A DNA stretch of 64,000 nt from Candidatus Komeilibacteria bacterium (GTDB lineage Bacteria > Patescibacteriota > Patescibacteriia > UBA1558 > UBA10009), in the NCBI GenBank assembly GCA_026396575.1, contig JAPLWM010000020.1, positions 14,266-78,265 on the forward strand. The letters are read 5' to 3'. This document shows, piece by piece, positions 36,319 to 59,904 of the stretch. The notes beneath the pieces are model-generated. The model searched no databases and was not told where the DNA came from. It was given only the letters and a program-made list of their open reading frames with translations. A program made the translations under genes and the position numbers. The stretch's first letter is position 1, and each line of letters opens with the position of its first letter.

Positions 36319-36322
36319 GAAT

Positions 36323-37828: not shown

Positions 37829-37837
37829 TGTTATAAT
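37829..37837 (+). promoter_or_regulatory. extended -10 element TGTTATAAT upstream of pilB
   Basis: tatGTTATAAT; ATG at 37866 follows about 29 nt downstream. This argues against the track start at 37809, which would contain the promoter. Confidence 0.35.
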
Positions 37838-37865
37838 TTATTCATTAACATTTGTCAATTTGCCT

Positions 37866-39602: not shown

Positions 39603-39621
39603 CAATTAAAAATTAATTCGT

Positions 39622-42214: not shown

Positions 42215-42218
42215 TTTT

Positions 42219-43424: not shown

Positions 43425-43457
43425 AAAACCGCTTTTTGTGCTATAATTAAACGGCTT

Positions 43458-44498: not shown

Positions 44499-44503
44499 TT
44501 CAT

Positions 44504-45025
44504 ATGATTTCCTTAAATTTAATTTCACCCCAGCAGCAGCATTATTTAAAAATCCGCTATGGGCATGTTTTAATTAAGAATTTTTTGGGCGTTTTGATTA
44601 TTTTAAGCGTGGCCTTGGCGATTGTTTCTCTGCCTTTACAGCGGCAGCTTAATAATTTGGAAATAAACAATGCGGCGATTAAAAAATCCATTGCCGGACA
44701 AAACCAGGAAACCACCCAAAAAATATCGGTTTTAAACCAAAAAATCCTGGATTTAACCAAAATTACCGTCGAAGCTTATAACTGGAATCGGCTGTTGCTG
44801 GCTTTAGCCGCCGCCGCGCCCCAGGACGTGGCTTTAAGTGATTTTTCCGCCAATTTAAGTTCAGCCGATTTTACGCTTAAGGGCTATGCCAAAACCCGGG
44901 AGGGTTTAATTGCCTTCAAGGACAATTTGGATAAAGCGGCTGTTTTTTCCAATATTCAATCCCCGCTGGAAAACTATTTGGAAAAACAGAATATCACTTT
45001 TTCTATTAGCGGCAAAATAAAATGA
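44504..45025 (+). CDS. pilN: PilN-like bitopic protein
   Basis: Single N-terminal TM (FLGVLIILSVALAIVSL) plus coiled coil; position after pilM. Confidence 0.6.
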   Translation: MISLNLISPQQQHYLKIRYGHVLIKNFLGVLIILSVALAIVSLPLQRQLNNLEINNAAIKKSIAGQNQETTQKISVLNQKILDLTKITVEAYNWNRLLLALAAAAPQDVALSDFSANLSSADFTLKGYAKTREGLIAFKDNLDKAAVFSNIQSPLENYLEKQNITFSISGKIK

Positions 45026-45558
45026 TTAAAAAAATCTTCAACCAAGCGGAACTGATTAAACTGGCCATCTTTTTGACCGTTTTCGGCTTTGTTTTATTGG
45101 CCTTCAATTTGCCTTTTATCGCCCGGGTTAACGACTTTTACGCCGCCTTAAAAGATGGTGAACAAAAATTAGCCGCCCAGTCTAAAGCCGGCAGCAGCCT
45201 GGATAAAGCCCAGGAAGATTATTCGGCTTTTAACGCTCTTATTCCCGAAGCCGAAGATTTATTCACCGCCAGCGGCCAGGAATTAAAATTAATCACGGAT
45301 TTGGAACAACTGGCCGCCACCCATAATTTAACCCAAAAATTGAACCTTAGCCCCGATCGGGTTAATTATTCCGACCAACTGGAGGCCTTAACTTTGTCCT
45401 TGGAGTTAAAAGGCGGCTTTAACGATCTGCTGGCTTATTTGGCCGATTTAAGCCAGCGCCGCTTTAGTTTAAACGTTAACGCCATCAGCTTAACCCAGCT
45501 AGACCAAAATTCGCTGGAAATTAAATTATTGACCAATACCTATTGGTTAAAACCGTAA
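45022..45558 (+). CDS. pilO: PilO-like bitopic protein
   Basis: Single N-terminal TM, coiled coil; overlaps pilN stop (ATGA). Confidence 0.55.
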   Translation: MIKKIFNQAELIKLAIFLTVFGFVLLAFNLPFIARVNDFYAALKDGEQKLAAQSKAGSSLDKAQEDYSAFNALIPEAEDLFTASGQELKLITDLEQLAATHNLTQKLNLSPDRVNYSDQLEALTLSLELKGGFNDLLAYLADLSQRRFSLNVNAISLTQLDQNSLEIKLLTNTYWLKP

Positions 45559-46156: not shown

Positions 46157-47689
46157 TCATTTTACCACTTCCCCGCCAAGGGCATCAATTACACCCTTTA
46201 CCAGATTATCGCCTTTTTGTCCAGCCAGATCGTCCAATAAGCCGTTGCCGAAACTTTCATCTATTTTGCCCAAAATGGACAGGGGCTTTAAAAACACCTT
46301 GCTTAAAACCTCTTCCACCATCCTTAAATTTTTATCTTCCTTAATTCTTTCGTAATGGAAATTGTATTTGAAGCCCACCACGATTTTTTTGCCCTGCACT
46401 GCCACAGGATAACCTGATTTTAAAAACATGGACAAAGAATGGTTGTAATCCTTTAGGGCCTCGATAATTTCCGGCCATTTTTGGCGGACCGTTTCCAGAT
46501 TGATGGCGCCGGCTTCCTGAATTTCCGGCTCTTGGGGAACTGATTTTTCGACCGCCGGTTTTTGAACCGCTTTTTCAGCAGTTAATATCGGCTGAACTTT
46601 ACCCAGGGCCTCGGCCGATTTAACCGCGGCAATTTCCAGAGGCAGCTGGATAATGGCGGTTTGCTTTAAGCCGAGCAAGGCTTCCAAAAATATTTCCAAA
46701 ACCTTAACCATAGAGGCGGTTGAAATTTCCTTGGTGTTTAAAACCAATTGGCGCAAGCGCTCTTCGCCGGCTTCCCAGCCCAATTCCTGCCAATCGCCGG
46801 TAACCTTGGCCAATAAAATTTTTCTTAAAGTTTCCACGGCGGTTTTGGCGAAGTGCTCCAAATCCACCCCTTCTTCCATTAAGACATTGATCATCTGGAT
46901 GGCTTCCTTGGTTTGGCCCAAAAACAAAAAATTGATAAACTCCATGACTTTTTGCCAATGGCTCTTGGGTAAAACCAAACTGGCCTGTTCTTCGGTGATT
47001 TCACGCTCGCCCAAAGACAAAATCTGGCCCAAAAGCGAAACCGCGTCCCGCAGGTAGCCCTCGGAAATCCGGGCGATATTTTTTATCACGGCGCCGGCTA
47101 CCTTAACATCTTCCCGAGAGGCCAAATCTTCCAGATGCAGAATAATTTCGTTTAACGGCACTTTTTTATAATCAAAACGCTGGCAGCGGGAAATGATGGT
47201 TTCAGGAATTTTATGGATTTCGGTGGTGGCCAGGATAAAAATGGCGTGCGCGGGCGGTTCTTCCAAGGTTTTTAAGAGGGCGTTAAAAGCCTCGTTGGTA
47301 AGCATGTGCGCCTCATCTATTATAAAAACCTTGTATTTTTCCTTAAGCGGGGTGTATTTGGTTTGCTCTCGCAGTTCCCGGATCTCGTTAATGCCCCGAT
47401 TGGAAGCGGCATCAATTTCCACTAAATCCAAAGAACGGCCTTCGCGGATTTCCACGCAACTGGGGCACTCGTCGCAGGGCTCAAAACCCCGGCGATTCTG
47501 GCAATTTAGGGCCTTGGCCAAAATCCGGGCAATGGTGGTTTTGCCGATGCCCCGGGGGCCGGAAAATAAATAAGCGTGGGCCAGCTTGCCCGAAGAAATT
47601 TCGTTTTGCAAAGTTACCTTGATATGGTTTTGGGCCACCACTTGGGAAAACTTCTGCGGCCGGTATTTGCGGTATAAGGTAGTAGACAT
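46157..47689 (-). CDS. dnaX: DNA polymerase III subunit gamma/tau
   Basis: AAA+ clamp-loader motifs GPRGIGKTT, DEAHML, SRC (TIISRCQRF), zinc module CDECPSC. Confidence 0.9.
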   Translation of the reverse strand: MSTTLYRKYRPQKFSQVVAQNHIKVTLQNEISSGKLAHAYLFSGPRGIGKTTIARILAKALNCQNRRGFEPCDECPSCVEIREGRSLDLVEIDAASNRGINEIRELREQTKYTPLKEKYKVFIIDEAHMLTNEAFNALLKTLEEPPAHAIFILATTEIHKIPETIISRCQRFDYKKVPLNEIILHLEDLASREDVKVAGAVIKNIARISEGYLRDAVSLLGQILSLGEREITEEQASLVLPKSHWQKVMEFINFLFLGQTKEAIQMINVLMEEGVDLEHFAKTAVETLRKILLAKVTGDWQELGWEAGEERLRQLVLNTKEISTASMVKVLEIFLEALLGLKQTAIIQLPLEIAAVKSAEALGKVQPILTAEKAVQKPAVEKSVPQEPEIQEAGAINLETVRQKWPEIIEALKDYNHSLSMFLKSGYPVAVQGKKIVVGFKYNFHYERIKEDKNLRMVEEVLSKVFLKPLSILGKIDESFGNGLLDDLAGQKGDNLVKGVIDALGGEVVK

Positions 47690-47737
47690 AGCAAAAGCAT
47701 TTTAACAAAATAACGGTTAAAAGGCAAATAAAAAAAA

Positions 47738-47853
47738 CTTGCCTACTATGTATCATTGCGAGCCCCGAGGGGGCGTGGCAATCCCGTTGTACTTGGTATA
47801 AACATCGGGATTGCTTCGTCGCGCGGCTCCTCGCAATGACAGCGATAGGCAAG
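47738..47853. repeat. copy 1 of a roughly 115 bp imperfect palindromic repeat element
   Basis: cattgcgag-ccccgagggggcgtg-gcaatcccg [19 nt loop] cgggattgc-ttcgtcgcgcggctc-ctcgcaatg flanked by an 8 bp outer stem cttgccta/taggcaag and by A/T runs; a near-identical core recurs at 53221-53306. Confidence 0.75.
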
Positions 47854-47859
47854 ATTTTT

Positions 47860-48396
47860 TTATTTTTTAATGATGTTTTCTATGGCCGCGTGCTGGCTTT
47901 CGGCCCCTTTGGGCACTAAAATTACGGCCTCATCGCCGATGCTGCCCTTAAAATAGGTAATGCTGGCCAAAATAACCTTGTACACCTTGTTATCGGCCAA
48001 AACGCGGTATTCGCCGGTGGCTTCATCTTTAATCACCTTGCCAACCAAACGTTCCCGCTCTACCGGGCCGATCTGCTTATAAACAAAATTGCCGGCCTCG
48101 TCGATCGACAATTTTAAAATATCGCCTTCCACCAATTTTGATTTGGAAATATAATTGGCCGGCACCGAATATTCCTTGCCGTCCGGGCCGATCATTTTTT
48201 GTCCGTCAAACACCCCTTCCACGATCCGTTCGCTGCTTAAAGCTTTCATTTCTTCCATACCCACCTTGGCCGCTTTTTTGCTGTAATCGATATCGTCCAA
48301 GGGATTCAAACTGCCGCCGGCCAAAAGCACTTTGCATTTCTGCACCTGAATTTCTATGTTATCCAAAATTTGTTTTAGCTCTTCCAAATTTTTCAT
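47860..48396 (-). CDS. hypothetical protein with two beta-rich repeats
   Basis: 178 aa; internal repeat around GDILKLSIDEAGNFVYKQIGPV / GEYRVLADNKVYKVILASI; no known motif. Confidence 0.45.
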   Translation of the reverse strand: MKNLEELKQILDNIEIQVQKCKVLLAGGSLNPLDDIDYSKKAAKVGMEEMKALSSERIVEGVFDGQKMIGPDGKEYSVPANYISKSKLVEGDILKLSIDEAGNFVYKQIGPVERERLVGKVIKDEATGEYRVLADNKVYKVILASITYFKGSIGDEAVILVPKGAESQHAAIENIIKK

Positions 48397-48481
48397 ATTT
48401 ATTTTTTCCGCCTTCGCCTCAACGCGGAAGCTGGCGGATTTTTATTTTTATTTAAATATTTTGATTTTAGCTATTAAACTC

Positions 48482-48509
48482 AATATAACAACTTTTTCAG
48501 GGTTGTCAA
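48482..48509 (-). promoter_or_regulatory. sigma-70-like promoter (TTGACA, 16 nt spacer, TATATT) for the 178 aa gene
   Basis: Minus strand reads TTGACAaccctgaaaaagttgtTATATT, about 80 nt upstream of the ATG at 48396. Confidence 0.35.
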
Positions 48510-48568
48510 ACAGCCAAGGTGTGAATAACTTTACCCCGCGCCCCGAGCACAGCCGAGGCGGCGCGGGG

Positions 48569-49093
48569 TTAGAAACGATATAAATACAGGGGCATGCCGT
48601 TGGCTGTGGCTTTAAACACTTCGGCCGGCTGGTAGTTTGGCAATTTAAAAGCCAAAGAAACCACCCGGGCGCCGGGATGCAATTCTTTTTTAAATTTGGG
48701 CTCCAGCTTGGCCATAACTTTGGGCAGAGAAAAAATATAAATCACGTCGGCCCCGCTTAAATCCAGCTGGTAAAAATTCCGCCAGCAAACTTTAATCCGC
48801 GCGCGATTCGGGCTAAGCCAGCGGCGCACTTGCGCCAAAACATAAGGCAATAAAGAAATTTCCACGCCGATTATTTTTTTTGCTCCCGTTAAGCGGGCCG
48901 CCGCGGTTAGCCAGCGGCCGTCGCCGCAACCCAGATCATAAACCGTTTCCCTTGCCTTAATATCGGCCAGCTTAAAACTGGCCAGCAGATTTTTATTAAA
49001 AGTCGGCACCCAGGGAGCACCGCTAAAGCCGGCCCGGATCATGGTGCCGAAAAGAATTAAAAATATTAAAATAAGCAGGGTGGGCAGAAACAT
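48569..49093 (-). CDS. class I SAM-dependent methyltransferase with N-terminal TM anchor
   Basis: Motif I VYDLGCGDGRW; N-terminal hydrophobic helix; 174 aa; 5 nt downstream of the VirD4-like gene. Confidence 0.65.
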   Translation of the reverse strand: MFLPTLLILIFLILFGTMIRAGFSGAPWVPTFNKNLLASFKLADIKARETVYDLGCGDGRWLTAAARLTGAKKIIGVEISLLPYVLAQVRRWLSPNRARIKVCWRNFYQLDLSGADVIYIFSLPKVMAKLEPKFKKELHPGARVVSLAFKLPNYQPAEVFKATANGMPLYLYRF

Positions 49094-49097
49094 AAAA

Positions 49098-51690
49098 TTA
49101 AGAAACCAGCCTCATCCGGGTTAAAATTTCCTGCTCGGCCAAAGCCCGGTCGCGGCCGTATTTAAGGCGCGATAATTCCCTGACGCGCAAAGCCATGGCT
49201 TTATCGCCGCCGGTAGGCGGATAGGGGCTTAAATTAAAAGCCCGGGCATTTTGATTGTCTATTAAAAGCTTGATGTAAGCGTTATATTTGGGAATATTGA
49301 TTAAATCGTACTCGTTAAACACCGGGGCGAATTGCTTGGCCAGCAGTTCGGCGTCATCGGGCCCGATTCTAAACGCCAGCATGGTGCCCACGTTGCCAAA
49401 AACCGCATCTCTAATGGAGGTATCCTTATTATTCCTGGTTAATTGGCCGATATACTGATGAGCCACGATTAAACACAGCCGGTATTTGCGGGCTTCGGAT
49501 AAAATAATGGCAATGGAATCGGTAATAAAATTCTGGAACTCGTCAATATACAGATAAAAATCCCGGCGCTCTTCCAAGGGCAGATCCACTCTGGACAAAG
49601 CGGCAATCAACAGTTTGCCCACGATGACCATGCCCAGCAAGTTGGCGCTTAAATCGCCGATTTTGCCTTTGGCCAATTTAATCAGCAAAATCTGGCCGCG
49701 ATCCATAACCTGCCTGAAATTGAAGGAACTTTTTTGCTGGGCGATAATCGGGCGCATTAAATCCGAAGAAACGAACGGCGTCAGCTTGCTGGTAATGTAA
49801 GGCACCATATTGGCGAGCGATGCTTCGCCGCCGGCTTTTTCCGCTTCTTTCTGCCAAAAATCCTTAACCACCGGATTTAAGCATTTCTCAAGTTTGAATT
49901 TTCGGAAAGCGGCATCGGCCAAAACCTTGGGCACTTCCAATAAGGTGGAGCCTGAAGCCGGATCTTCCATCATCAACAGCATGGCGTTGCGCATATACTG
50001 CTCAAACATCGGGCCGCCGGTGGCTTTAAGGTCGTAAAGCTTGTCAAAAATATTGATCATTTCGTTGATCACAAAAGTTTTCTGCTCCGGATTTTCAAAT
50101 TCCAGCATATTGAGGCCGATCGGCCGCTCGGTATCCGACGGATCGAACAAGATAACGTCATCGGCCCGCTCCGGCGGAATATGCTCCAGCACAGCGTCCA
50201 CCAAATCGCCGTGCGGATCAATTAAGCAAACGCCTTTGCCGGCGGCAATATCCTGGATAATCAGATTCTGCTGGAAAACCGATTTGCCGGTGCCGGATTT
50301 GCCGATAATGTACATATGGCGGCGGCGGTCGTCTTCGGCCATTCTGATCGGCGTACGCAAGCCGCGGTAAAAATTATCCCCGAGTAAAATTCCTTCCGCC
50401 GGAAGATTTAAAGGCGGCGCCGCTTTGCGGGCTTCCAACCAATGGATATTCGGCGTTTCCGAACGAGGCAAAGGCAAATGCCAAAGCGAAGCCATTTCTT
50501 CGGCATTTAAAATCATATTGTACTTGGGCACAAAGCCGCGTTGGATAAAATCAGTCACCAGCTTGGGCAAATTAACGAATTTGGCCCGCTTAAAAGCGTT
50601 GCCGTACTGGTAAATATTGAATTGGGCGAAAGCATTGACCATGTTGCCCAGATAATTTTCGGCCAGCTGCTTGGTCGGCGCCGAAACCACCAGCCGCAAA
50701 TTAACATCCAAGCCGGCTTTGCTGGTTTTTTCTTCAATGCCCTTGATTAGTTCCTGCTCCATGGGCGACAAGCGGTACTGCAATTCGGCCCGGCCAAGAT
50801 TTTCCTCGCTTTTTTTGGTAGTGGAAAAAAAAGTCACGATGCCCCAGATAAAACCGCCGATTTTATCAAAAACATTGCCAAACCCGGCCCGCCTTAAAGC
50901 GGCCCGCATGGTCCGGCCCTGCTGAACTTCCCGCGCTACCCTAACCCCGCGCCAGTGCCACCTTCGGTGCGAAGAACGGATCACGAATTGAATGCCGGCC
51001 GAAAGCGTTTTATCCGCTTCGGCATTGCCCAAACCGGCGATTTTAGCCAAAGAACTGGTAAGGGCATCAACCGGATCGCTGCCCATTTTTACATAGGTTT
51101 TAAGGGGAAAAATAAAATCCCGGGCCAAACGCAAATAAGCGCCGGCCAGCTCGCCTTTAACCGAAAAAATATTATAATCCTCCACTTCTTCCGTTAAAGC
51201 GAACGGATAAGAAGCGTGGATCTGCTGTTCCAAGGTTTCTTTCAAGTAATCAGGCACGGCAATATAAAAATAAATTTTACCCTGTTGTAAAATTATTTCC
51301 AGGGAAAACAAATCGGTCCGGCCGACCAGCCATTGATGCAAACCGCGCTGGGCTCTTAACCCGCCCAAAACAGAAAATAAATCTTCGGCCACGCTGATTT
51401 CCTCTTTTAGGGCCTGCTGAATCGGCGCCGTGGGAGATTTTTCGTTTTTGCGCAAGGACTCTTTGGGCACGGAAACCAACAAGACCCTTTGCTTGAAAGC
51501 GGCGGGCAAACGATAGGACCTGGCCAACCACCTTCTTAAAAAATGCAGGCCGGCCCACAAAAACAAAAAAATAATTGCCGCCCAAAAAAGAGAGACAATT
51601 ACCGGACTGTTTAAAAAAAGATTAAAATTATTGGTAGCCGGCAAGTCGGAACCGAACTCCAGCTGCACGGCCAATAAAAACATCGCCATT
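49098..51690 (-). CDS. VirD4/TraG/TraD-like coupling ATPase (type IV secretion DNA-transfer family), membrane anchored
   Basis: Two N-terminal TM helices; Walker A MYIIGKSGTGKSV; Walker B YLYIDEFQNF; LIVAHQYIGQL block. Start placed at ATG 51690, adjacent to the upstream gene stop (TAATG); the track start 51791 lies inside the upstream ORF. Confidence 0.55.
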
Positions 51691-52219
51691 ATTTTTGCAT
51701 TCTTTCTTTTAAAGCCAGCAGGCGGTCGGCTTTGATTTTCGCTTCCTGCTCCAAAAAATACTTGTTCACGCCAGGAATAATCCGCAGCCACTTAAAAATC
51801 AGCAAGAAAATCTCCTTAACCTTAACTTTGGCGCTAATCAACAATTTGGCTATTTTACGGGCCGTTTCCTCGCCTTGAGTTTTAAACTCCTGCTGTTTGG
51901 CGCGGGGCATTTTGGCGTAGGCCTCCTCCAAATCTTCGGCTAAAATGCTTTCCACCTGCCTGGTTAGCTGAACCGCCGCCGGAGCAGCCGCCGTTGCGGC
52001 CGGACTTGAGGAAAATTTTTGTTCCAAGCCGGTCGGAGCCGTTTCCTTGATCGCTTCTTTAATTTCCGGACTAATTTCAAAAACGGCCTCTGGAGCTTCG
52101 GCTTGGGGCTCTGATTTTTCCGCCCGACTAAGCGACTCTAAAACTGCTAAATCGTCCCGGGCCTCTTTAATTGCGCCATCAAGGTTATTTTGCGGCATCT
52201 TGCTTAAATTATACAACAA
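51691..52219 (-). CDS. hypothetical coiled-coil protein translationally coupled to the VirD4-like ATPase
   Basis: 176 aa, Ala/Pro-rich middle, amphipathic C-terminus; stop codon abuts the downstream start. Confidence 0.4.
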
Positions 52220-52224
52220 AACGT

Positions 52225-52233
52225 GGTATAATA
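52225..52233 (+). promoter_or_regulatory. extended -10 element TGGTATAAT upstream of corA
   Basis: acgTGGTATAATaaaaggag; the same CGTGGTATAAT 11-mer occurs at 29142-29152. Confidence 0.35.
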
Positions 52234-52263
52234 AAAGGAGTTCAACTAAGCTTCTTTTTCAAC

Positions 52264-53196
52264 ATGGAAAAATCAAAACACGTCAAAGAAATAAAAACCG
52301 CCAAAGTCCGCTGGGTGCATTTAAGCAAAAACACCGTGCGGGAAATAGATTATTTAAGGCAGAACTTTAAATTCCACCCGCTGGATTTGGACGATTGCCT
52401 TTCGCCCGCCCAGCGCCCCAAGCTGGATGAATACGAAAGCTATCTGTTTTTAGTGATGACCTTCCCCTATTATGACCGCGAACAGCGGGAAATTATGGCT
52501 TCGGAAGTCAACTTTTTTATCGGGCCGGATTATTTGGTAACGGTGACCGACGGCAAGCTGCTGCCTTTATTAAAATTCTTCGAGCAATGCCAAACCAGCG
52601 ACGGCTACCGCGAAAAATACCTGGGCATTAACCCTATTTTCCTGTTTTCAGAAATCTTGGATAAATTGCAGCTTAATTTGTACCCTATTTTGGACCATAT
52701 CGGCGAAGAAATAAACCAGCTGCAAAAAGCGATTTTTTCCGGTTCGGAAAAACAGATGGTTAAGGAAATCCTGATCATCAAGCGCAACATCATCAATTTC
52801 CGCAAAATCGTCCAGGCCCATAAAAACGTGGTGCGCAAGCTGATTGCCAAAAAAGACAAATTTTTTATTCCTTCCAATTTAATGGTTTACCTGGCCAATA
52901 ATTTGGAGCAAAGCAAGGATATCTGGGACACTTTGGAAAGCCTGAAAGAAAACGTGGAAGCCCTGCACAATACCAACGAATCGCTGATTTCTTTCCGCTT
53001 AAACGACATCATTAAAATTTTAACCATTATTTCTGTAATTTTATTGCCGGCCAATTTGATTGCCGTAACTTTCGGCATGAAAACCGCAGGCATGCCTTTA
53101 GCCAACAATCCATATGGCTTTTGGCTGGCGGTGGGCCTGATGGCGGCGGTGATGCTTTCGTTGATCCTTTATTTTAAAAACAAGCGTTGGTTGTAA
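52264..53196 (+). CDS. corA: CorA-family divalent cation transporter with GMK in place of the GMN signature
   Basis: Cytoplasmic N-domain plus two C-terminal TM helices; loop sequence AVTFGMKTAGMP aligns with the CorA YGMNF motif; start set at MEKSKHVKEIK. Confidence 0.65.
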   Translation: MEKSKHVKEIKTAKVRWVHLSKNTVREIDYLRQNFKFHPLDLDDCLSPAQRPKLDEYESYLFLVMTFPYYDREQREIMASEVNFFIGPDYLVTVTDGKLLPLLKFFEQCQTSDGYREKYLGINPIFLFSEILDKLQLNLYPILDHIGEEINQLQKAIFSGSEKQMVKEILIIKRNIINFRKIVQAHKNVVRKLIAKKDKFFIPSNLMVYLANNLEQSKDIWDTLESLKENVEALHNTNESLISFRLNDIIKILTIISVILLPANLIAVTFGMKTAGMPLANNPYGFWLAVGLMAAVMLSLILYFKNKRWL

Positions 53197-53206
53197 AATA
53201 AAAAAA

Positions 53207-53321
53207 CTTTGCTCTTTTGTCATTGCGAGCCCCGAAGGGGCGTGGCAATCCCGATGTTAATGGTTATTAATAACGGGATTGCTTCGTCGCGCGGCTCCTC
53301 GCAATGACAGCGTAAGCAAAG
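53207..53321. repeat. copy 2 of the palindromic repeat element
   Basis: Core cattgcgagccccgaaggggcgtggcaatcccg...cgggattgcttcgtcgcgcggctcctcgcaatg identical to copy 1 except one base and the loop; outer stem here is ctttgct/agcaaag (different sequence, still complementary); sits between convergent corA and the pilin-like gene. Confidence 0.75.
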
Positions 53322-53326
53322 TTTTT

Positions 53327-53782
53327 TTATTCCCCGAAAACCACCATTTGCTGGCGGGTGATTTCGGAAAAATACCACAAGTTGTAAGATTGGCCGTCGC
53401 TCCAATAGCCGTACGACAGGCCGCTGCCGGACAAAGGATCCCTGGGGATCTCTTTTAAAGCCGCGGCTAAAATATCCTGGCCGTGAACGGTCTCTTTTTT
53501 CTGGACCGGATAGGTTTTATGTTCGGCTTGGTAGGTTTTAAGCTTGTCCTGCAAAACAACCATGTCGGCTTTTCTTTGTTCGTCGCGCTTTCCTTCCAAA
53601 CCCTTGGCATGGTCCAGATTGGCAAACACGCTGCTGCCAATTAGGCCTAAAATGGCTAAAGTCAGCGGAATAGCTATAATGGCAAAACCTTTTTGATTAG
53701 TCATAGTATGGCAGTTAGATAACTTGGGCATTGTACTCTTTTTTAAGATTTTGTCAACCCGCAATGCGCTTGACAAAATCAT
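53327..53782 (-). CDS. membrane-anchored pilin-like protein (no Glu+5)
   Basis: MTNQKGFAIIAIPLTLAILGLIGSSVFANL hydrophobic N-terminus resembling a prepilin but lacking E5; 151 aa. Confidence 0.35.
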   Translation of the reverse strand: MILSSALRVDKILKKSTMPKLSNCHTMTNQKGFAIIAIPLTLAILGLIGSSVFANLDHAKGLEGKRDEQRKADMVVLQDKLKTYQAEHKTYPVQKKETVHGQDILAAALKEIPRDPLSGSGLSYGYWSDGQSYNLWYFSEITRQQMVVFGE

Positions 53783-53859
53783 TATAATCTGCTAGATTTA
53801 AATGTTTGAGTTCGTTGAAATTCAATCAAAAACAACACAATACAAAAGGAGGCATTAAA

Positions 53860-54645
53860 ATGCCAGAAGGTTCGGAAACGGCAAAATCTGCCATCCGACT
53901 CACCCTTGAGGCCATGCTCAACAATATACTCAAAACCTTGGGAGTAGCGGCTGAGAAGTGGGTCGATCGTATTTCTCAAGACGTGTTCAACGTCAAGGGA
54001 CACTGGGACGACAGTGTATTCAACCTGATCAAAGCCATGTACCGCAAGGTGCGTGGCAAAAAAAACTACAGTGCGCTACTACGCCTAATTGGGTTCTTAA
54101 CCGAACCCGAGCATCAAGAATTCGGAGTGATTTCCATCAGCGAATTGGCTCTTACCTATAAGGAAGAAGAGCCGCCTGCTAAAGGAAAAGCATCGAAACC
54201 CGGAGAAAAAGAAGGAGGCAAAAAACCGCTTTCCGTGGTGGAAAAAAATTTCGCTTTCTTTCTGAACGATTTCGATTTCGAAAAGCGGGAGAACTACACC
54301 GTCCTGTTTGAATCGTACGACTTTCTGATTCGCGACTTTTTACAGCTGGAAGCAAAAGGCCGGGCCAATCGAGATGAGGTAGTGCGCCTGATGCACTTGA
54401 ATTCGCTTTACGCCGATGAAACGTTGAAAAAACGGCTAGCCGGCGTGATGTTGCATGTTGCCGACTGGCCCGCCACTCTGAAAAAGTGGCGTAAGCAAGG
54501 TTGGGCAATGTTTGTTGTCGGCTTGAAAGCTGCTGATAAACACCTCAACGAACGGTTTAGCGAACGTGCTCGGGCATCTCGGGAAAGCAGCGCTAATGCT
54601 CTTGCGCAAGCAAAAGAGCGGTTATGTAACCGCCTCCAACACTAA
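53860..54645 (+). CDS. hypothetical soluble protein, first gene of a three-gene cassette
   Basis: Strong RBS AAAGGAGG 8 nt upstream of ATG 53860; 262 aa with Lys/Glu-rich linker; no motif; locally elevated GC. Confidence 0.5.
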   Translation: MPEGSETAKSAIRLTLEAMLNNILKTLGVAAEKWVDRISQDVFNVKGHWDDSVFNLIKAMYRKVRGKKNYSALLRLIGFLTEPEHQEFGVISISELALTYKEEEPPAKGKASKPGEKEGGKKPLSVVEKNFAFFLNDFDFEKRENYTVLFESYDFLIRDFLQLEAKGRANRDEVVRLMHLNSLYADETLKKRLAGVMLHVADWPATLKKWRKQGWAMFVVGLKAADKHLNERFSERARASRESSANALAQAKERLCNRLQH

Positions 54646-54654
54646 GGAGAACGC

Positions 54655-55545
54655 ATGAATTCAATCTTGGACCAACTCTGGAGTTTTATCGATCGTCTTG
54701 GAGTGTTGGTTTTAACCATCGCCGACATGATCGTCCAGGGTAAAAACACACTGGCCGAAATCCACTACAAGGAATTTGGCGAGCGAATACAATGGCAGGT
54801 GCGAAGAGCCGGCATCATCGCCCTGATTTGCATCGGGGTGCTGCTGGCCATGAGTGTGGCAGGCCTGTGGTGCGGTTATACCGGCCACTGGGTAATAAGT
54901 TCATGGCTTCTGGGCTGGGCAATAGTGGGCTTGGGCCTGCTAATGCTGTTTGAGCAGGCGGTATTTGCTGCGCTGGGGATTATGGTCTTTGGCGCTAGAT
55001 TTGCCGCTTTGGCAGGGGTCTACCCCGCCTTCATGATAGGCAAGGGCCTACTTGGAGAGATCGGCAAAATGCTCAAACTACCGGGCAAACTGGTGGAATG
55101 GATACCCCGCCTGGGAAAAGTAATCGCCATCCAGTTGAACACCTGGGGCAAGAAATCGCCCGAAGAAATCCGCCAGCTCTTTGAGCTGATGGAAAAACCG
55201 GAAGGCGATCAAAGTCATCCCGACCAACAGGCCTGGGATGATAACTGGCGAGAAGTGAACGGGATGTTGAATGAAGCGAAGCAGAAAGCAGAGGAGGTGG
55301 CGCAAACCATCTTCTTCTATACCGAGGCCTGCCTTGGGTTCCTGGCATTCATGGCCATTTTCTTCTTTGTCGTGGCACCAAACTCCGAAACCGCTTCTGC
55401 GGCTTTAGGGTTGGATAGCTCGATAAAAGGATTCTGGCTGGACATCGTCAATAGTCGGCGTACATTACTCGCCGTAACGCTGATCGGATTGTTCGGAGCG
55501 TTTACGGTAAGTAGGAAACCAAAACTGCCGGAGGCAACTCAATGA
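54655..55545 (+). CDS. hypothetical polytopic membrane protein, second gene of the cassette
   Basis: 296 aa, about 4 N-terminal TM helices plus one C-terminal TM with a soluble acidic middle; starts 10 nt after gene 1. Confidence 0.5.
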   Translation: MNSILDQLWSFIDRLGVLVLTIADMIVQGKNTLAEIHYKEFGERIQWQVRRAGIIALICIGVLLAMSVAGLWCGYTGHWVISSWLLGWAIVGLGLLMLFEQAVFAALGIMVFGARFAALAGVYPAFMIGKGLLGEIGKMLKLPGKLVEWIPRLGKVIAIQLNTWGKKSPEEIRQLFELMEKPEGDQSHPDQQAWDDNWREVNGMLNEAKQKAEEVAQTIFFYTEACLGFLAFMAIFFFVVAPNSETASAALGLDSSIKGFWLDIVNSRRTLLAVTLIGLFGAFTVSRKPKLPEATQ

Positions 55546-56453
55546 GACCAAAAACTCTAATCATCGTGCTGGTTGCCGCTGGCATGATCGTCATTGCCGC
55601 CAGTGCGGTAATAAAAAATCTGCCCATCAAAGGCGACGCTCGAGTGGCTTACGCCGATGCTGACCGCAACGAAATCGTCAGGAATAACGAAGCCGCCCTG
55701 CTGCTCGACGAAAGCGTTTGGATCAGTGAAGAAAAACTGGCGGTCTGCCTGGATTCCACTAATCTGACGGACTTGATGTTCGCGGAAACGCCAATAACGA
55801 TTTCAGCCGGTGAGATTGTTATTTACGGCGACGTTGTCTTTTCTGAACCGAGGCAAATGTTCAGAAAAATTTGGCTTGTTAACCAGCGAAGCCGCCGGGC
55901 AACTGGCCACACCGGACTGGTGTTAAGCGCGTTGTTAAGGTATTTCCCGGACCCGAACCAGGCCTGGGCTTACCAAGACAGCTGCCAAAAAGCGCTGGCT
56001 GATACCGGAGAAACGCCAAACCCTAGTTTGGCCGCCTCACTGCCTGATTCGTTTGTTTACGATATCAGCCAAGGCGAGGTGGCATTGGGCTTGGTAACAG
56101 AGGGCGAATCCTTCCGGATTGTGCCGACACTGTTATCGGATACGCTTATCTGGGACAGGTGCCGGTGCGATTACTGCCGCACCCATACCGACGGCGGCAG
56201 CAAATCCCTTCGGGGAATTGTTACCGGCCGCTTGGCTAGAACGGTAAAGGAACGTCCAAACGATTACCCGGCTCCGGAAGCACCAATAGGCGCCTTGCTG
56301 ATTAAGCTGCCCGGCCAAACCTGGGCAATACTGGATCGTCCTGAAACTTATCAGGCCAGGCAAAACGGCTTGGTATTGGTAAGTTTAAATGACCGAAACG
56401 GGCTCTTCTCGGAAAACGCCGGGAAGATTCTGTTAAAGTCATCGCGGCTCTAA
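55542..56453 (+). CDS. hypothetical membrane-anchored protein with CRCDYCRTH cysteine cluster, third gene of the cassette
   Basis: N-terminal TM LIIVLVAAGMIVIAASAV; overlaps gene 2 stop by 4 nt (ATGA). Confidence 0.5.
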   Translation: MRPKTLIIVLVAAGMIVIAASAVIKNLPIKGDARVAYADADRNEIVRNNEAALLLDESVWISEEKLAVCLDSTNLTDLMFAETPITISAGEIVIYGDVVFSEPRQMFRKIWLVNQRSRRATGHTGLVLSALLRYFPDPNQAWAYQDSCQKALADTGETPNPSLAASLPDSFVYDISQGEVALGLVTEGESFRIVPTLLSDTLIWDRCRCDYCRTHTDGGSKSLRGIVTGRLARTVKERPNDYPAPEAPIGALLIKLPGQTWAILDRPETYQARQNGLVLVSLNDRNGLFSENAGKILLKSSRL

Positions 56454-56459
56454 GCCGAA

Positions 56460-56498
56460 AAACCAAGAAGCCAGCCGTCCATTCGTGGACAGCTGGCC
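56460..56498 (+). terminator. rho-independent terminator of the three-gene cassette
   Basis: gccagccgtcca-ttcg-tggacagctggc (12 bp stem, one mismatch, TTCG loop) followed by CTCTTTTTTTT. Confidence 0.7.
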
Positions 56499-56545
56499 TC
56501 TTTTTTTTAATAAATTCACAGCGAATAAAATGAGCTGTAGAATTT

Positions 56546-56607
56546 ATTAACCCCGCACCCGAGGCGTGATACCTGAGCGAAGCGAATGGTTCACGGCGAG
56601 TGGTGCG
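56546..56607. other. GC-rich stem (ccccgcacc/ggtgcgggg) enclosing a 44 nt structured loop, downstream of dnaJ
   Basis: Direct read; similar GC-rich 9 bp stems at 48533-48572 and inside the palindromic repeat cores. Confidence 0.3.
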
Positions 56608-56630
56608 GGGTACTATGAATTTTTTAATAT

Positions 56631-57746
56631 TTAAAGTCCTTCTTTAGCTAAATCTTCCAACAATTTTTTTTGTGAGCGCGATAAATTATTAGGTATAATA
56701 ACTTTTACTTCCACTAATAAATCCCCTCGGCCATGGCCATGCAACTTGACTACGCCCTTGCCTTTAATGCTGAACTGCTGGCCGCCGGGAGTGCCGGCCG
56801 GAATTTTCAAACTGACCTGGCCGTCCAAAGTTTCCACGTCCACCTTATCGCCCAAAGCGGCCCGGCTAAAGCTGATATTTTTAACGGTAAGCAAATTATC
56901 GCCCGAACGCTTAAACAGCGGATGGGGCAAAACTTTGATATTAATATACAAATCGCCCGGCCTTAAGCCGCGTTCGGCAGCGCCGCCTTTGCCCGAAAGC
57001 TTTAAGGTTTCGCCACTGGATATTCCGGCCGGAACTTTTACCTTGATCGTTTCCACGCCCCGCTTAAAACCCCGCCCACCGCAAACAATGCACTTTTTTT
57101 CAGGCACCTGGCCTTCGCCATTGCAATCCGGACAAGCCGCCACCGAGCGGAAATTGCCAAAAAAAGTGGCTTGCGAAATGGTAACCTGGCCCGAACCTTT
57201 GCAGGTTTTGCAGGTATTTATTTTAACGCCCGGCTCGGCGCCATTGCCTTGGCAATGATCGCAGGTTATTTCTTTGGTTAATTCCAAAACTTTTTCCGCG
57301 CCAAAAACCGCGTCTTGCAAGCTAATGGTAATGCCGGCTTCCAAGTCTTCGCCGTGCGTACGCTGCCTGGTAGAACTTCTGCCGCCGCCGAAGAAATCGC
57401 CGAAAATCTCGCCCAAATCGGAAATATTAAAATCCTGGTTTCTAAAACCGGAAGCGCCAAAACCGGACTGGCGGCTAAAATCGGACCAATTAAATCCGCC
57501 CTGGCCGCCGCCAGCGCCAAAACCCGCTCCTTGAGAAAAGGCCTCGGAGCCGAATTGGTCATAGGTTTTGCGCTTTTCCGGATTGCCCAGCACCTGATAG
57601 GCCTCGTTTAATTCCTTGAATTTTTCGGCATTGCCGCCGGATTTGTCCGGATGGTGCTGATGGGCCTTTTTCCTAAAAGCGCTTTTAATTTCTTCAGGCG
57701 TGGCCGTTTTGGCCACGCCTAAAATGGAATAGTAATCTTTTGCCAT
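56631..57746 (-). CDS. dnaJ: molecular chaperone DnaJ
   Basis: J-domain with HPD (KAHQHHPDK), G/F-rich region, four CxxCxGxG zinc-finger repeats. Confidence 0.9.
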   Translation of the reverse strand: MAKDYYSILGVAKTATPEEIKSAFRKKAHQHHPDKSGGNAEKFKELNEAYQVLGNPEKRKTYDQFGSEAFSQGAGFGAGGGQGGFNWSDFSRQSGFGASGFRNQDFNISDLGEIFGDFFGGGRSSTRQRTHGEDLEAGITISLQDAVFGAEKVLELTKEITCDHCQGNGAEPGVKINTCKTCKGSGQVTISQATFFGNFRSVAACPDCNGEGQVPEKKCIVCGGRGFKRGVETIKVKVPAGISSGETLKLSGKGGAAERGLRPGDLYINIKVLPHPLFKRSGDNLLTVKNISFSRAALGDKVDVETLDGQVSLKIPAGTPGGQQFSIKGKGVVKLHGHGRGDLLVEVKVIIPNNLSRSQKKLLEDLAKEGL

Positions 57747-57941
57747 TTAATTTTTCTTTTCTTTGCTGTTTAATAACTCCATTTCCGGATCTATATATGT
57801 TTTTTTACAATCCGAGCAAATGCCGTGGCTAATACCAGGCCCTTCCCATCTGCCTATTTCCTTTTTACACCAAGCGCAAACCACCATACCTTTTAATTGT
57901 TCACTTTCCGGCTTGGGCATCGGTTGTTGTTCAAAATCCAT
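57747..57941 (-). CDS. small zinc-ribbon protein between dnaK and dnaJ
   Basis: 64 aa; CAWCKK ... CSDCKK two CxxC pairs. Confidence 0.4.
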   Translation of the reverse strand: MDFEQQPMPKPESEQLKGMVVCAWCKKEIGRWEGPGISHGICSDCKKTYIDPEMELLNSKEKKN

Positions 57942-57954
57942 AATTTTAGATCAA

Positions 57955-59904
57955 TTATTTTTTAACCTCTTCATATTCGGCTTCTACTGGTTCCTCCTTC
58001 GCTCCTTGCGGAGCTTCGGAGGATGCACCCGCCTGTCCGCTTGATTGCTGGCCTGCTTGTCCGCCGGAGCCTTGGGCGGAGGCGGAATACATGGCCGAAC
58101 CGATTTTTTGCACGGTTTGGTTTAAATCTTCAAAGGCCGATTTTATAGCTGCAGCATCGCTGCCATCTTTAACCTTTTTCAAAACTTCAACTTTTTCATT
58201 AACTTCCTTTACCACCTCGGCCGGCACTTTATCGCCGGATTCCTTGAGGATTTTTTCGGTCTGGTAAATTACGCTGTCGGCATTGTTCCTTAAATCGATC
58301 AGCTCTTTCTTTTTTTCGTCTTCGGCAGCATGAATTTCCGCTTCCTTGCGCATCTTTTCCACTTCGTCTTTGGACAAGCCCGAAGAAGCGGTAATGGTAA
58401 TGGATTGCTCCTTATTGGTGGCTTTATCCTTGGCTTTAACATTTAAGATGCCGTTGGCGTCCAAATCAAAAGTTACTTCCACTTGAGGCACGCCCCTGGG
58501 AGCCGGCGGAATGCCGGATAAAATGAAGCGGCCCAAAGTTTTATTGTCTTCGGCCATTTTGCGCTCGCCCTGTAAAACATGGATTTCCACGCTGGTTTGC
58601 GAATCGGCAGCCGTGGAAAAAATCTGGCTCTTGGAAGTGGGAATAGTGGTGTTGCGGTCAATCAGCGGCGTCATTACGCCGCCCAAAGTTTCAATGCCCA
58701 AAGTTAAAGGCGTAACATCCAAGAGTAAAACATCCTTAACGTCGCCTTGCAGTACGCCGGCTTGCACGGCCGCGCCTAAGGCCACAACTTCATCCGGATT
58801 AACCGAGACATTGGGCTTTTTGCCGAAAAATTCTTCGACTTTCTTTAAAACCAAAGGCATGCGGGTCATGCCGCCGACCAAAACCACTTCGTTAATCTGG
58901 GCTTTGGAAAAACCCGAATCCTTAATCGCCTGTTCGGCCGCAATGAATGTTTTATCAACCAAATCCATTACCAGCTCTTCCAGCTTGGCACGGGTTAATT
59001 TCATAACCAAATGTTTGGGGCCGGAAGCATCGGTAGAAATAAACGGCTGGTTAATTTCGGTTTCCACGGAAGTGGAAAGTTCGATTTTGGCTTTTTCGGC
59101 AGCCTCCTTGACCCGCTGCATGGCCATGGCGTCGCCGGTTAAATTAATCCCCTGATCTTTTTTGAATTCGGCAATAATCCAGTTAATCAAACGCTGGTCA
59201 AAATCGTCGCCGCCCAAATGGGTATCGCCGTTGGTGGATTTTACTTCAATGTGCGGCTCTTTAACTCCGCCGCCCATGTCTGCTTCGCCAATTTCCATAA
59301 TGGAAATGTCAAACGTACCGCCGCCTAAATCATAAACAGCGATTTTTTGTTCTTTACTTTTATCAAAGCCGTAAGCCAAAGCCGCGGCCGTGGGTTCGTT
59401 GATGATTCTTTTTACGGTAAAGCCCGCAATTTCGCCGGCATCCTTGGTGGCTTGGCGCTGGGAATCGTCAAAATAAGCGGGTACGGTAATAATCGCTTCG
59501 GTAATTTTTTCGCCCAAACGCTCTTCGGCATCGGCTTTTAACTTGGCCAGAATCATGGCCGAAATTTCCTGCGGCGTGTAATCCTTGTCGCCCATTTTTA
59601 TTTTAACGCCTTCGCCGGCTTGGATGATTTTATAAGGCATGGTTTTTAAATCGCGGCTTACTTCCGGGTCGTTAAAATGCCGGCCGATCAAGCGCTTAAT
59701 GGAAAACAAGGTATTGGCCGGATTGGTTACGGCCTGGCGCTTGGCCAACAAGCCTACTAACCGTTCGCCGGTTTTAGCAATCGCCACCATGGAAGGAGTG
59801 GTGCGGTTGCCTTCTTTGTTTTCTAAAATCTTGGGCTGGCCGCCTTCCATAACGGCCATGGCACTGTTGGTGGTGCCCAAATCAATTCCTAAAATTTTTG
59901 GCAT
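57955..59904 (-). CDS. dnaK: molecular chaperone DnaK (Hsp70)
   Basis: 649 aa; [20 protein letters not shown]-less acidic C-terminus. Confidence 0.95.

What the first reader, a model, noticed from the sequence alone, without database searches (positions are those of the whole stretch)
53860..56453. Tightly coupled three-gene cassette (soluble plus two membrane proteins) with no recognisable domains, compositionally distinct and bracketed by structured elements
Three plus-strand genes are separated by 10 nt and by a 4 nt overlap. The first has a strong AAAGGAGG RBS and the cassette ends with a strong intrinsic terminator (56460-56498). They encode a 262 aa soluble protein with a Lys-rich linker, a 296 aa polytopic membrane protein, and a 303 aa membrane-anchored protein with a CRCDYCRTH cysteine cluster. 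I recognise no catalytic or family motif in any of them. Codon usage is visibly more GC- and CTG-rich than the neighbouring genes. The cassette is flanked on the left by palindromic repeat copy 2 and on the right by GC-rich hairpins before dnaJ. This is a plausible horizontally acquired envelope-associated module, possibly a transporter, toxin/immunity pair or surface system, of unknown function.
Basis: partly seen in the sequence, partly recalled or inferred. Interest (0 to 1): 0.6.

Follow-up and report, generated by a model that had tools for sequence, protein, structure and literature searches.

The report
Three-part surface lectin membrane complex
Three tightly linked orphan genes of an ultrasmall (CPR, Komeilibacteria) bacterium encode the parts of one membrane complex that most likely displays a LecA-type sugar-binding domain on the cell surface; it is an inherited, fast-evolving candidate for recognising partner cells, not a recently imported gene island.

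Summary
There are three coupled plus-strand genes (261, 296 and 303 aa) with a strong RBS and a terminator, and none matches Pfam, NCBIfam, PHROGs or PADLOC. The window is a Candidatus Komeilibacteria (CPR) genome.

Horizontal acquisition is not supported. The cassette sits in the same slot (CorA | pilin-like gene | cassette | dnaJ-dnaK) in four other lineages whose DnaJ is only 60-74% identical.

In relatives the modules are fused. g2-like and g3-like parts form single 533 and 563 aa proteins. A 788 aa protein equals a relative's whole three-gene operon. So the genes make one unit:
- M1 (g1): a cytoplasmic protein.
- M2 (g2): a six-helix membrane platform with a cytoplasmic loop of about 90 aa.
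- M3 (g3): a membrane-anchored protein.

The last 137 residues of g3 model confidently (pLDDT 88). The top 11 PDB fold matches are all LecA/PllA/EclA lectins, and the Ca2+ motif N-D...[D/N/E]-N-x-G is kept.

Best reading: a tripartite membrane complex showing a Ca2+-type lectin at the surface, for glycan recognition. That function is inferred.

The cassette evolves much faster than its flanks. Its GC3 excess recurs in relatives and is unexplained. The g1-to-M1 link rests on position only.

The parts
53770..53798 (+). Promoter-like site for the cassette: TTGACA, 17 nt, TGnTAGATT. It sits back to back with the pilin-like gene's promoter on the minus strand (53757-53730).
   Evidence: The paired TTGACA boxes (inverted repeat TTTTGTCAA-N12-TTGACAAAA) are conserved in L001, L010 and L015. 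Promoter activity is inferred.
53845..53852 (+). Shine-Dalgarno AAAGGAGG, 7 nt before the g1 ATG
   Evidence: Read from the sequence.
53860..54645 (+). g1 (261 aa), proposed module M1. It is soluble with no hydrophobic segment. It has an N-terminal domain (aa 1-100), a Lys-rich linker (aa 101-123, 54160-54228) and a C-terminal domain.
   Evidence: Orthologues are 57-59% identical and lie in the same position. Equivalence to M1 of distant relatives rests on position, size and layout only. Sequence evidence is marginal.
54655..55545 (+). g2 (296 aa), module M2, a polytopic membrane platform. Hydrophobic helices lie at about aa 14-30, 52-75, 79-99, 102-124, 218-242 and 269-287. A K/R-rich loop of about 90 aa (aa 125-217, 55027-55305) is predicted to be cytoplasmic.
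   Evidence: hhalign against the membrane modules of L016_271, P0013, P0011 and P0015 gives probability 95.2%, E 2.6e-8, over 184 columns. Topology is inferred.
55542..56453 (+). g3 (303 aa), module M3. It has an N-terminal MRPK plus a membrane helix (aa 6-24, 55557-55613), a lineage-specific region (aa 25-166) and a C-terminal lectin-fold domain.
56040..56450 (+). LecA/PA-IL-like beta-sandwich domain (g3 aa 167-303)
   Evidence: AF2 gives pLDDT 88.1 and pTM 0.83. In Foldseek against the PDB, ranks 1-11 are all LecA, PllA or EclA, with E 8e-6 to 3e-4 and TM 0.54-0.69. The sequence profile's top PDB hits are LecA and PllA. hhalign against LecA gives P 9e-5.
56160..56177 (+). CxCxxC (g3 C207, C209, C212), in a variable loop that replaces LecA's His50/Gln53 loop
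   Evidence: It is conserved in P0002 and P0011 only, and the loop has lower model confidence (pLDDT 60-74).
56388..56423 (+). Putative Ca2+/sugar-site motif N283-D284...E291-N292-x-G294, aligned to LecA N99-D100...N107-N108-x-G110
   Evidence: Alignments. LecA ligand roles are taken from PMC9321714. N283, N292 and G294 are invariant in the family.
56465..56510 (+). Intrinsic terminator: a stem of up to 17 pairs followed by a T-run. It can act in both directions between g3 and the convergent dnaJ.
   Evidence: An equivalent hairpin lies between M3 and dnaJ in L001.
53327..53704 (-). Divergently transcribed pilin-like gene (125 aa; KG|F site, no Glu5; GspG-like). It is the conserved left neighbour of the cassette in 5 lineages. 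A functional link is not shown.

Best explanation
g1, g2 and g3 encode the three modules of a single membrane complex specific to Komeilibacteria-type CPR bacteria.
- M1 (g1) is a soluble cytoplasmic protein.
- M2 (g2) is a six-helix membrane platform. Both its ends and a loop of about 90 aa face the cytoplasm.
- M3 (g3) is anchored by one N-terminal helix (N-in, C-out). Outside the cell it carries a lineage-specific region and a C-terminal LecA-type, probably Ca2+-dependent, carbohydrate-binding beta-sandwich.

The genes are co-transcribed from one promoter and translationally coupled, so the parts are made in matched amounts.

The most likely role is recognition of glycans on another cell's surface, either for attachment to or sensing of a host or partner. 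The cytoplasmic mass (M1 plus the M2 loop) suggests the binding event is coupled across the membrane rather than the complex being a passive anchor.

The locus is inherited vertically at a fixed chromosomal slot and diverges much faster than its housekeeping neighbours.

Shown: gene structure; synteny; M2-M3 and M1-M2-M3 fusions in relatives; g2 = M2 and g3 = M3 homology; LecA-like predicted fold and motif.

Inferred: topology; g1 = M1; sugar binding; the biological role.
For: One unit. P0013 (788 aa) matches, in order, the three adjacent genes of L016: 225 aa (E 1e-19), 271 aa (E 2e-38) and 311 aa (E 6e-25). P0011 (533 aa) and P0015 (563 aa) combine an M2-like module with the g3-like anchor and domain. 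g2 aligns to these membrane modules at hhalign probability 95.2%, E 2.6e-8. The g3 C-domain matches all of them at E 1e-10 to 1e-24.

Gene order. The order g1-g2-g3 is kept in L001 and in L006/L007.

Lectin domain. The Ca2+ motif is complete in 6 of 8 members.

Topology. The 788-aa fusion needs an odd number of crossings between a signal-less N-terminal domain and the C-terminal domain. K/R-rich segments flank the g2 C-tail and the g3 N-terminus.

Vertical inheritance. The slot is the same in L001, L010, L015 and L008.

Fast divergence. DnaJ is 60-74% identical, CorA 57-69% and the ATPase 67-69%. By contrast M2 is 22-57% and the lectin domain 33-41%.

Context. Glycan-based host recognition is suspected in cultivated Patescibacteria, and the molecules involved are largely unknown (PMC11623550).
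Against: - No experimental or expression data exist.
- The lectin assignment rests on a predicted structure. The sequence matches to LecA are below significance on their own: E 0.37 against the PDB, and Pfam PA-IL E 0.028 in 1 of 8 members, below the curated cut-off.
- LecA's galactose-specific residues His50 and Gln53 are not alignable.
- P0013 and P0016 lack the Asp100 equivalent, and P0013 also lacks the Asn107 equivalent, so sugar binding may not be universal in the family.
- g1 cannot be shown to be homologous to M1 of distant relatives. The best of several decoy tests gave empirical p = 0.002 (6 of 3000); the others gave 0.006-0.19.
- The topology model puts one K/R-containing loop outside the cell, and DeepTMHMM was not available.
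- g3 has a possible AxA signal-peptidase site, so the lectin part could be released rather than anchored.
- M1 and M2 have no known relatives and no motifs, so the 'coupling' idea has no mechanistic support.
Confidence: 0.5

Rival explanations
1. One reading: a recently horizontally acquired envelope module, such as a toxin/immunity pair, a defence system or a mobile surface system.
For: g2 and g3 have the highest total GC of the window's ORFs. The GC3 excess over flanks is also seen in L008 (z 2.7), L016 and L001. The family is extremely rare, with about 8 real clusters among 1.84e9 representatives.
Against: The cassette has the same chromosomal slot and neighbours in lineages with 60-74% DnaJ identity. 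No integrase, tRNA or direct repeats border it (one search finds no tRNA near it). There is no PADLOC or PHROG match. It has no relatives in viral contigs, phages or plasmids. The palindrome on the left is separated from the cassette by a conserved pilin-like gene.
Confidence: 0.05
2. A carbohydrate capture and uptake device. The surface lectin domain binds a sugar or glycan and M2 forms the membrane conduit, with M1 as a cytoplasmic gate or enzyme.
For: The complex combines a lectin-fold ectodomain with a six-helix membrane protein. From general knowledge, CPR bacteria depend on scavenging.
Against: M2 matches no transporter family in Pfam, NCBIfam or PDB sequences. There is no ATPase or binding-protein signature in M1. 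LecA-type domains are known as adhesion lectins, not transporter receptors.
Confidence: 0.12
3. An accessory of the pilus/pseudopilus system. The complex would be a membrane base or receptor for the divergently transcribed pilin-like protein, or would work with the nearby type IV pilus genes.
For: The pilin-like gene is the immediate divergent neighbour and shares a conserved back-to-back promoter region in the window, L001, L010, L015 and L008. A PilB/C/M/N/O cluster lies about 8-16 kb upstream.
Against: The two are separable. L013 has CorA plus the pilin-like gene without the cassette. L007 has the cassette with a different upstream gene. L016 and L017 show other neighbours. The cassette has no similarity to PilM/N/O/C or other pilus families.
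Confidence: 0.13
4. A self-directed envelope tether. The lectin domain binds the cell's own wall or S-layer glycans to link membrane and wall, giving a structural role without partner recognition.
For: The architecture is the same as for the best explanation. The complex sits in a chromosomal, housekeeping-like neighbourhood next to dnaJ and dnaK.
Against: Very fast divergence and a lineage-specific variable ectodomain region fit an interface that changes between lineages better than a conserved self-structure. The family is absent from most CPR genomes.
Confidence: 0.15

Closest known systems
LecA (PA-IL) of Pseudomonas aeruginosa and its relatives PllA (Photorhabdus) and the EclA N-domain (Enterobacter); Pfam PF07828
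   Same: The predicted fold of g3 aa 167-303 matches. The top 11 PDB matches are all this family. The shared motifs NPGD-like, GAL[IV]xK and ND...[DNE]NxG align with LecA N99-D100, N107-N108 and G110.
   Different: Sequence similarity is below family thresholds. The loop carrying LecA His50/Gln53 (galactose O6 contacts) is replaced by a longer loop with CxCxxC. From general knowledge, LecA is a small soluble tetramer, whereas here the domain ends a membrane-anchored protein that is one third of a tripartite complex. Sugar specificity is unknown.
RsgI-type anti-sigma factors with extracellular carbohydrate-binding modules (Clostridia/Bacillus). Compared on mode of action only.
   Same: An extracellular sugar-binding domain is linked through the membrane to a cytoplasmic module. 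This is the logic proposed here. It is based on general knowledge plus the paper listed (10.1101/2023.06.27.546760).
   Different: There is no sequence or domain relationship. No sigma factor, anti-sigma domain or SEAL domain was detected. The complex has six or seven helices instead of one.
Lectin-like minor pilins PilX1 and PilX2 of Saccharibacteria
   Same: Both are predicted glycan-binding surface proteins of Patescibacteria, proposed to mediate host recognition (PMC11623550).
   Different: Those are pilus subunits with L-type or PLL-type lectin folds. This one is a membrane complex with a LecA-type fold, in a different CPR phylum.
Gram-positive-type T4SS membrane components (VirB6-like polytopic, VirB8-like bitopic)
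   Same: A polytopic protein is paired with a bitopic membrane protein. A TrwB/DUF87-type ATPase lies 2 kb upstream.
   Different: There are no significant matches, only chance-level hits to DUF2749, DUF2976 and TrbC at E 0.03-0.16. The ectodomain is LecA-like rather than NTF2-like. CorA and the pilin-like gene lie between the cassette and the ATPase.

Membership tests
LecA / PA-IL-like lectin domain (PF07828) | LecA-type beta-sandwich fold | tested here: met
   The AF2 model has pLDDT 88.1. Foldseek PDB ranks 1-11 are all LecA, PllA or EclA, with E 8e-6 to 3e-4, probability 1.00 and TM 0.54-0.69. The next hit is at E 7e-3. This is a predicted structure, not a solved one.
LecA / PA-IL-like lectin domain (PF07828) | Sequence match to the family model above the curated threshold | tested here: not met
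   Pfam PA-IL is hit by 1 of 8 family members at E 0.028, and g3 itself gives no hit. The profile against PDB sequences puts LecA on top but at E 0.37. hhalign gives probability 59%, P 9e-5.
LecA / PA-IL-like lectin domain (PF07828) | Ca2+-site side chains Asp100, Asn107 and Asn108 | tested here: inconclusive
   By alignment, D100 = g3 D284, N107 = g3 E291 (D or N in most members) and N108 = invariant N292. P0013 lacks two of these and P0016 lacks one. Whether a metal binds is not testable here. Ligand roles come from PMC9321714 and from memory for Asn108.
LecA / PA-IL-like lectin domain (PF07828) | Galactose-specific contacts His50 and Gln53 | tested here: not met
   That loop is replaced by a longer, variable, low-confidence loop (domain residues 41-60, pLDDT 60-74) that carries CxCxxC in 3 of 8 members.
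LecA / PA-IL-like lectin domain (PF07828) | Carbohydrate-binding activity | not testable with these tools
   This needs a glycan array or ITC on the recombinant domain.
Mobile or horizontally acquired island | Variable presence at the locus, mobility genes or attachment sites, and relatives on mobile elements | tested here: not met
   The slot is conserved in 5 lineages. No tRNA or integrase is adjacent. There are no matches in viral contigs, phages or plasmids.
Mobile or horizontally acquired island | Atypical composition relative to the host genome | tested here: inconclusive
   Total GC is highest in the window, but GC3 and CTG use lie within the local range. The GC3 excess recurs at the same slot in L008, L016 and L001, so it is not a signature of a recent event.
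Anti-phage defence or toxin-immunity systems (PADLOC) | Match to any known defence protein model | tested here: not met
   There were no hits at E <= 1 for the three proteins.
Known transporter families | Match of the polytopic protein to a transporter family or fold | tested here: not met
   Pfam and NCBIfam give nothing. The M2 profile against PDB sequences returns only designed helical proteins.
Type IV pilus assembly proteins (PilM/N/O/C) | Sequence match to the pilus assembly families | tested here: not met
   The genuine PilB/C/M/N/O genes lie elsewhere in the window. The cassette proteins give no such hits.

The most novel reading that the evidence does not exclude
The cassette is the host- or partner-recognition receptor of a Komeilibacteria lineage. 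It would be a previously undescribed tripartite transmembrane lectin receptor in which two new protein families (M1 and M2) couple surface glycan binding to a cytoplasmic response. On this reading, its fast divergence and persistent GC3 excess reflect recurrent allelic exchange or diversifying selection at a host-specificity locus.
Probability: 0.2. Interest if true: 0.75.

Novelty: new variant of a known kind. Interest (0 to 1): 0.45.

Why it matters
How ultrasmall CPR/Patescibacteria find and hold on to their partner cells is largely unknown (PMC11623550). This work turns three 'hypothetical' orphan genes into a defined candidate with a predicted exposed sugar-binding domain, a proposed membrane layout and natural fusion variants showing that the parts belong together.

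The candidate is directly testable, by glycan arrays on a 137-residue domain or by labelling community members with that domain. The work also adds a membrane-anchored architecture to the LecA lectin fold and defines two membrane or cytoplasmic protein families with no known relatives.

The limits are the narrow distribution (a handful of lineages) and the absence of any experimental data.

Tried and rejected
- Pfam, NCBIfam, PHROGs and PADLOC on the three proteins gave nothing usable. The WCCH, holin-X, DUF2749 and other hits are all below cut-off and read as chance.
- AF2 on full-length g3 with a 2-sequence alignment failed (pLDDT 32) and was not used.
- g1 was compared with the positional equivalents in L010 and L008 and with the P0013 N-terminus by BLASTP, hhalign, hmmsearch and a shuffled-decoy test. 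The result was not significant. The best of several decoy tests gave p = 0.002 and the others 0.006-0.19. Homology is therefore not claimed.
- The 287-aa gene upstream of P0013 in L008 is an unrelated beta-rich protein.
- In L017, the neighbours of the g3-like gene could not be linked to M1 or M2.
- Profiles of M1 and M2 against PDB sequences returned only designed helical proteins.
- The pilin-based scans added only L011 (the same organism as L008) and three short contigs.
- A weak A4 hit in the window at 34933-36354 is a Mur ligase and therefore spurious.
- Rfam found nothing in 53000-56800.
- Contigs of the same strain are 100% identical to the window, so no polymorphism data could be extracted.
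Full report
**1. What is there.**

The window comes from a Candidatus Komeilibacteria (Patescibacteria/CPR) metagenome-assembled genome. g3 and g2 are 100% identical to NCBI 'MAG: hypothetical protein NTZ18_04000/03995 [Candidatus Komeilibacteria bacterium]' (lineage).

- g1: 53860-54645, 261 aa
- g2: 54655-55545, 296 aa
- g3: 55542-56453, 303 aa

The g1-g2 gap is 9 nt, with an AAGGAG overlapping the g1 stop. g2 and g3 overlap by ATGA, with GGAGG 8 nt upstream. AAAGGAGG lies 7 nt before the g1 ATG. The longer TTG start at 53806 is not in frame in the closest relative.

A sigma-70-like promoter (TTGACA-17-TGnTAGATT, 53770-53798) sits back to back with a minus-strand promoter for the neighbouring gene. 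The hairpin at 56465-56502 plus a T-run is a strong terminator (dG -23.9 kcal/mol, z -5.6).

g1 has no hydrophobic segment, g2 has five to six, and g3 has one at its N-terminus. None of the three matches Pfam, NCBIfam, PHROGs or PADLOC above noise.

**2. Rarity and close relatives.**

Each protein has only two relatives besides itself among 5.8e9 clustered proteins: g1 at 57-59% identity, g2 at 55-56% and g3 at 44%.

The contigs carrying these relatives keep the order g1-g2-g3 (L001; L006/L007). In L001 the neighbours are also the same: a 125-aa pilin-like gene on the other strand upstream and dnaJ convergent downstream.

**3. Distant relatives and synteny.**

A full HMMER scan with the g3 profile against 1.84e9 representatives found six further real members. 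All match through the last ~140 residues of g3. Two other hits are repeat-rich proteins and are discounted.

Their contigs show the same chromosomal arrangement as window 46157-59904:

dnaX | small ORF(s) | ~850-aa DUF8128/DUF87/TrwB-like ATPase | ~175-aa ORF | CorA | pilin-like gene | cassette | dnaJ | dnaK ...

Between the window and these lineages, identities are as follows:

| Protein | Identity to window |
|---|---|
| DnaJ | 60-74% |
| CorA | 57-69% |
| ATPase | 67-69% |
| M2 (membrane module) | 22-57% |
| Lectin domain | 33-41% |

So the cassette is an old, vertically inherited resident of this slot that diverges far faster than its neighbours. It has no relatives in viral contigs, phage genomes or plasmids. 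No tRNA or integrase is adjacent.

**4. The three genes are one unit.**

In L016 the family exists as three coupled genes of 225, 271 and 311 aa. The 788-aa protein P0013 matches these three in order:
- aa 40-192, E 1e-19
- aa 226-481, E 2e-38
- aa 493-779, E 6e-25

P0013 is thus a complete fusion. P0011 (533 aa) and P0015 (563 aa) join the membrane module to the anchor-plus-domain module. Each is preceded by a separate 277-aa or 244-aa soluble protein related to L016_225 (E 1e-5 to 1e-45).

g2 aligns to the membrane modules of these proteins with hhalign probability 95.2%, E 2.6e-8, over 184 columns. The hydrophobic-segment pattern is the same in all of them.

g1 occupies the M1 position and shares its size and layout: an N-terminal domain, a Lys-rich linker and a C-terminal domain. 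However, I could not demonstrate homology to distant M1s. The best of several decoy tests gave p = 0.002 and the others 0.006-0.19. That link is positional inference.

**5. The recognisable domain.**

Full-length g3 with two sequences did not fold (pLDDT 32). The C-terminal 137 residues with the 8-member alignment A4 gave pLDDT 88.1 and pTM 0.83.

In Foldseek against the PDB, ranks 1-11 are all LecA (PA-IL), PllA or the EclA N-domain (E 8e-6 to 3e-4, probability 1.00, TM 0.54-0.69). The next hit is at E 7e-3.

Independent sequence evidence points the same way but is weak:
- The A4 sequence profile's best PDB hits are LecA and PllA, though at E 0.37-0.56.
- hhalign against LecA gives P 9e-5.
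- One member touches Pfam PA-IL at E 0.028.

The family-invariant residues N283, N292 and G294 of g3, together with D284, align with LecA N99, N108, G110 and D100. LecA N107 corresponds to E291 (D or N in most members). In LecA, Asn107 binds Ca2+ and galactose, and Asp100 and Thr104 contact O4 (PMC9321714).

The loop bearing LecA's galactose-specific His50 and Gln53 is replaced by a longer, variable loop. Only CxCxxC is conserved, and only in 3 of 8 members. The fold is therefore LecA-like, a Ca2+-type site is plausible, and sugar specificity is open.

**6. Proposed topology (inferred).**

M1 has no signal peptide and is fused N-terminally in P0013. g3 starts MRPK followed by a helix. The g2 C-tail (RKPK) and the linker before M3's helix in the fusions are K/R-rich.

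An odd number of crossings is needed between M1 and the lectin domain. This is satisfied if all six hydrophobic segments of g2 span the membrane. That puts the ~90-aa K/R-rich loop (aa 125-217) in the cytoplasm and the lectin domain outside.

Two weaknesses remain. One short loop with 2-4 K/R falls outside the cell, and g3 has a possible A-S-A|V signal-peptidase site that is not conserved.

**7. Mechanism.**

The best-supported reading is a tripartite membrane complex presenting a Ca2+-type lectin on the cell surface, for glycan recognition. About 350 residues of conserved cytoplasmic mass (M1 plus the M2 loop) argue for transmembrane coupling rather than a simple anchor.

Three things fit a role in recognising a partner cell: the fast divergence, the lineage-specific ectodomain region, and the episymbiotic lifestyle reported for cultivated Patescibacteria, where glycan binding is suspected but the molecules are largely unknown (PMC11623550). 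This role is inference.

The rivals are listed with their evidence: a sugar-uptake device, a pilus accessory, a self-envelope tether and a horizontally acquired module. The pilus link is weakened because the pilin-like gene and the cassette occur without each other.

**8. Composition.**

g2 and g3 have the highest total GC among 61 ORFs (0.52-0.53 against 0.446 ± 0.034). Their GC3 and CTG/Leu fall within the range of the 26-64 kb half of the window.

The GC3 excess recurs at the same slot in relatives:
- L008: 0.49 against 0.32 ± 0.06 (z 2.7)
- L016: 0.49-0.54 against 0.28-0.31
- L001: 0.48-0.58 against 0.39-0.42
- L010 and L015: no clear excess

This is not the signature of a recent transfer and stays unexplained. 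Recombination or biased gene conversion at a fast-evolving locus is one possibility.

**9. Verdict.**

On novelty, this is a new membrane-anchored, three-module setting for the LecA lectin fold, with two partner families that have no known relatives.

Interest is moderate. It is a concrete, testable candidate for CPR partner recognition, but it is confined to a few lineages and rests on prediction.

Noticed in passing
window 53197-53331 and 47751-47784: A REP-like nested palindrome lies between the convergent CorA and pilin-like genes. It has a 17-nt perfect outer inverted repeat and 44-nt inner arms. A second copy of its core lies 5.5 kb upstream. Two independent Logan contigs of the same strain both break at 53283, inside the element.
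   Followed up: partly
window 53730-53798; L001 ~520-590; L015 ~1525-1565; L010 ~8955-9005: Two promoter-like sites lie back to back, arranged as an inverted repeat TTTTGTCAA-N12-TTGACAAAA. The two TTGACA boxes are conserved across lineages. A 22-nt 5'UTR stretch (AATGTTTGAGTTCGTTGAAATT) is identical in the window and L001. This may be a shared regulatory region for the pilin-like gene and the cassette.
   Followed up: partly
window 53327-53704 (-): The mechanically listed 151-aa ORF is really a 125-aa GspG-like pilin-type protein starting MTNQKGF. It has a G|F cleavage-type site but no Glu5. It sits next to CorA in the window and in L010, L015, L008 and L013; the L001 contig has the pilin-like gene but ends before any CorA could be seen.
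   Followed up: partly
window 49098-51791 (-): An 897-aa membrane-anchored DUF8128/DUF87/TrwB-TraG-like ATPase is 67-69% identical across lineages. It always lies in the block dnaX ... ATPase, ~175-aa ORF, CorA. It is a highly conserved coupling-protein-like ATPase of unknown role in this CPR group.
   Followed up: no
window 37809-45558: A type IV pilus gene cluster lies 8-16 kb upstream of the cassette: PilB at 37809-39602, PilC at 39622-40758, and PilM, PilN and PilO at 43458-45558. L010 also has PilN upstream in the equivalent position.
   Followed up: partly
window 1-26000 vs 26000-64000: The window has two compositional halves. Gene GC3 is about 0.44 in the first 26 kb and about 0.54 in the rest.
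   Followed up: no
L008 10001-12367; L016 846-2596; L001 643-3251: The cassette's GC3 excess over its flanking genes recurs at the same syntenic slot in relatives (L008 z = 2.7). Cassette GC stays at about 0.43-0.53 whatever the host locus GC (0.37-0.46). This is unexplained.
   Followed up: partly
window 57747-57941 (-): A 64-aa ORF with CxxC...CxxC (zinc-ribbon-like) lies between dnaK and dnaJ. It is also present as a 65-aa ORF in L015.
   Followed up: no
L011 (CAZPMS010000006.1): The record is titled 'uncultured Gammaproteobacteria bacterium', but its gene content and order match this CPR locus. It carries P0013 and encodes a closely similar DnaK. The taxonomic label looks wrong.
   Followed up: partly
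window 56550-56611: A GC-rich hairpin with 10-nt perfect arms lies just downstream of dnaJ on the minus strand (dG -30.6 kcal/mol, z -4.75). It is probably the dnaJ terminator rather than a boundary of the cassette. It is absent from L001, where a single hairpin serves both genes.
   Followed up: partly
L008 8882-9745: In the lineage with the fully fused 788-aa protein, an extra 287-aa beta-rich protein with a C-terminal membrane anchor is inserted between the pilin-like gene and the fusion gene. It is unrelated to g1.
   Followed up: partly
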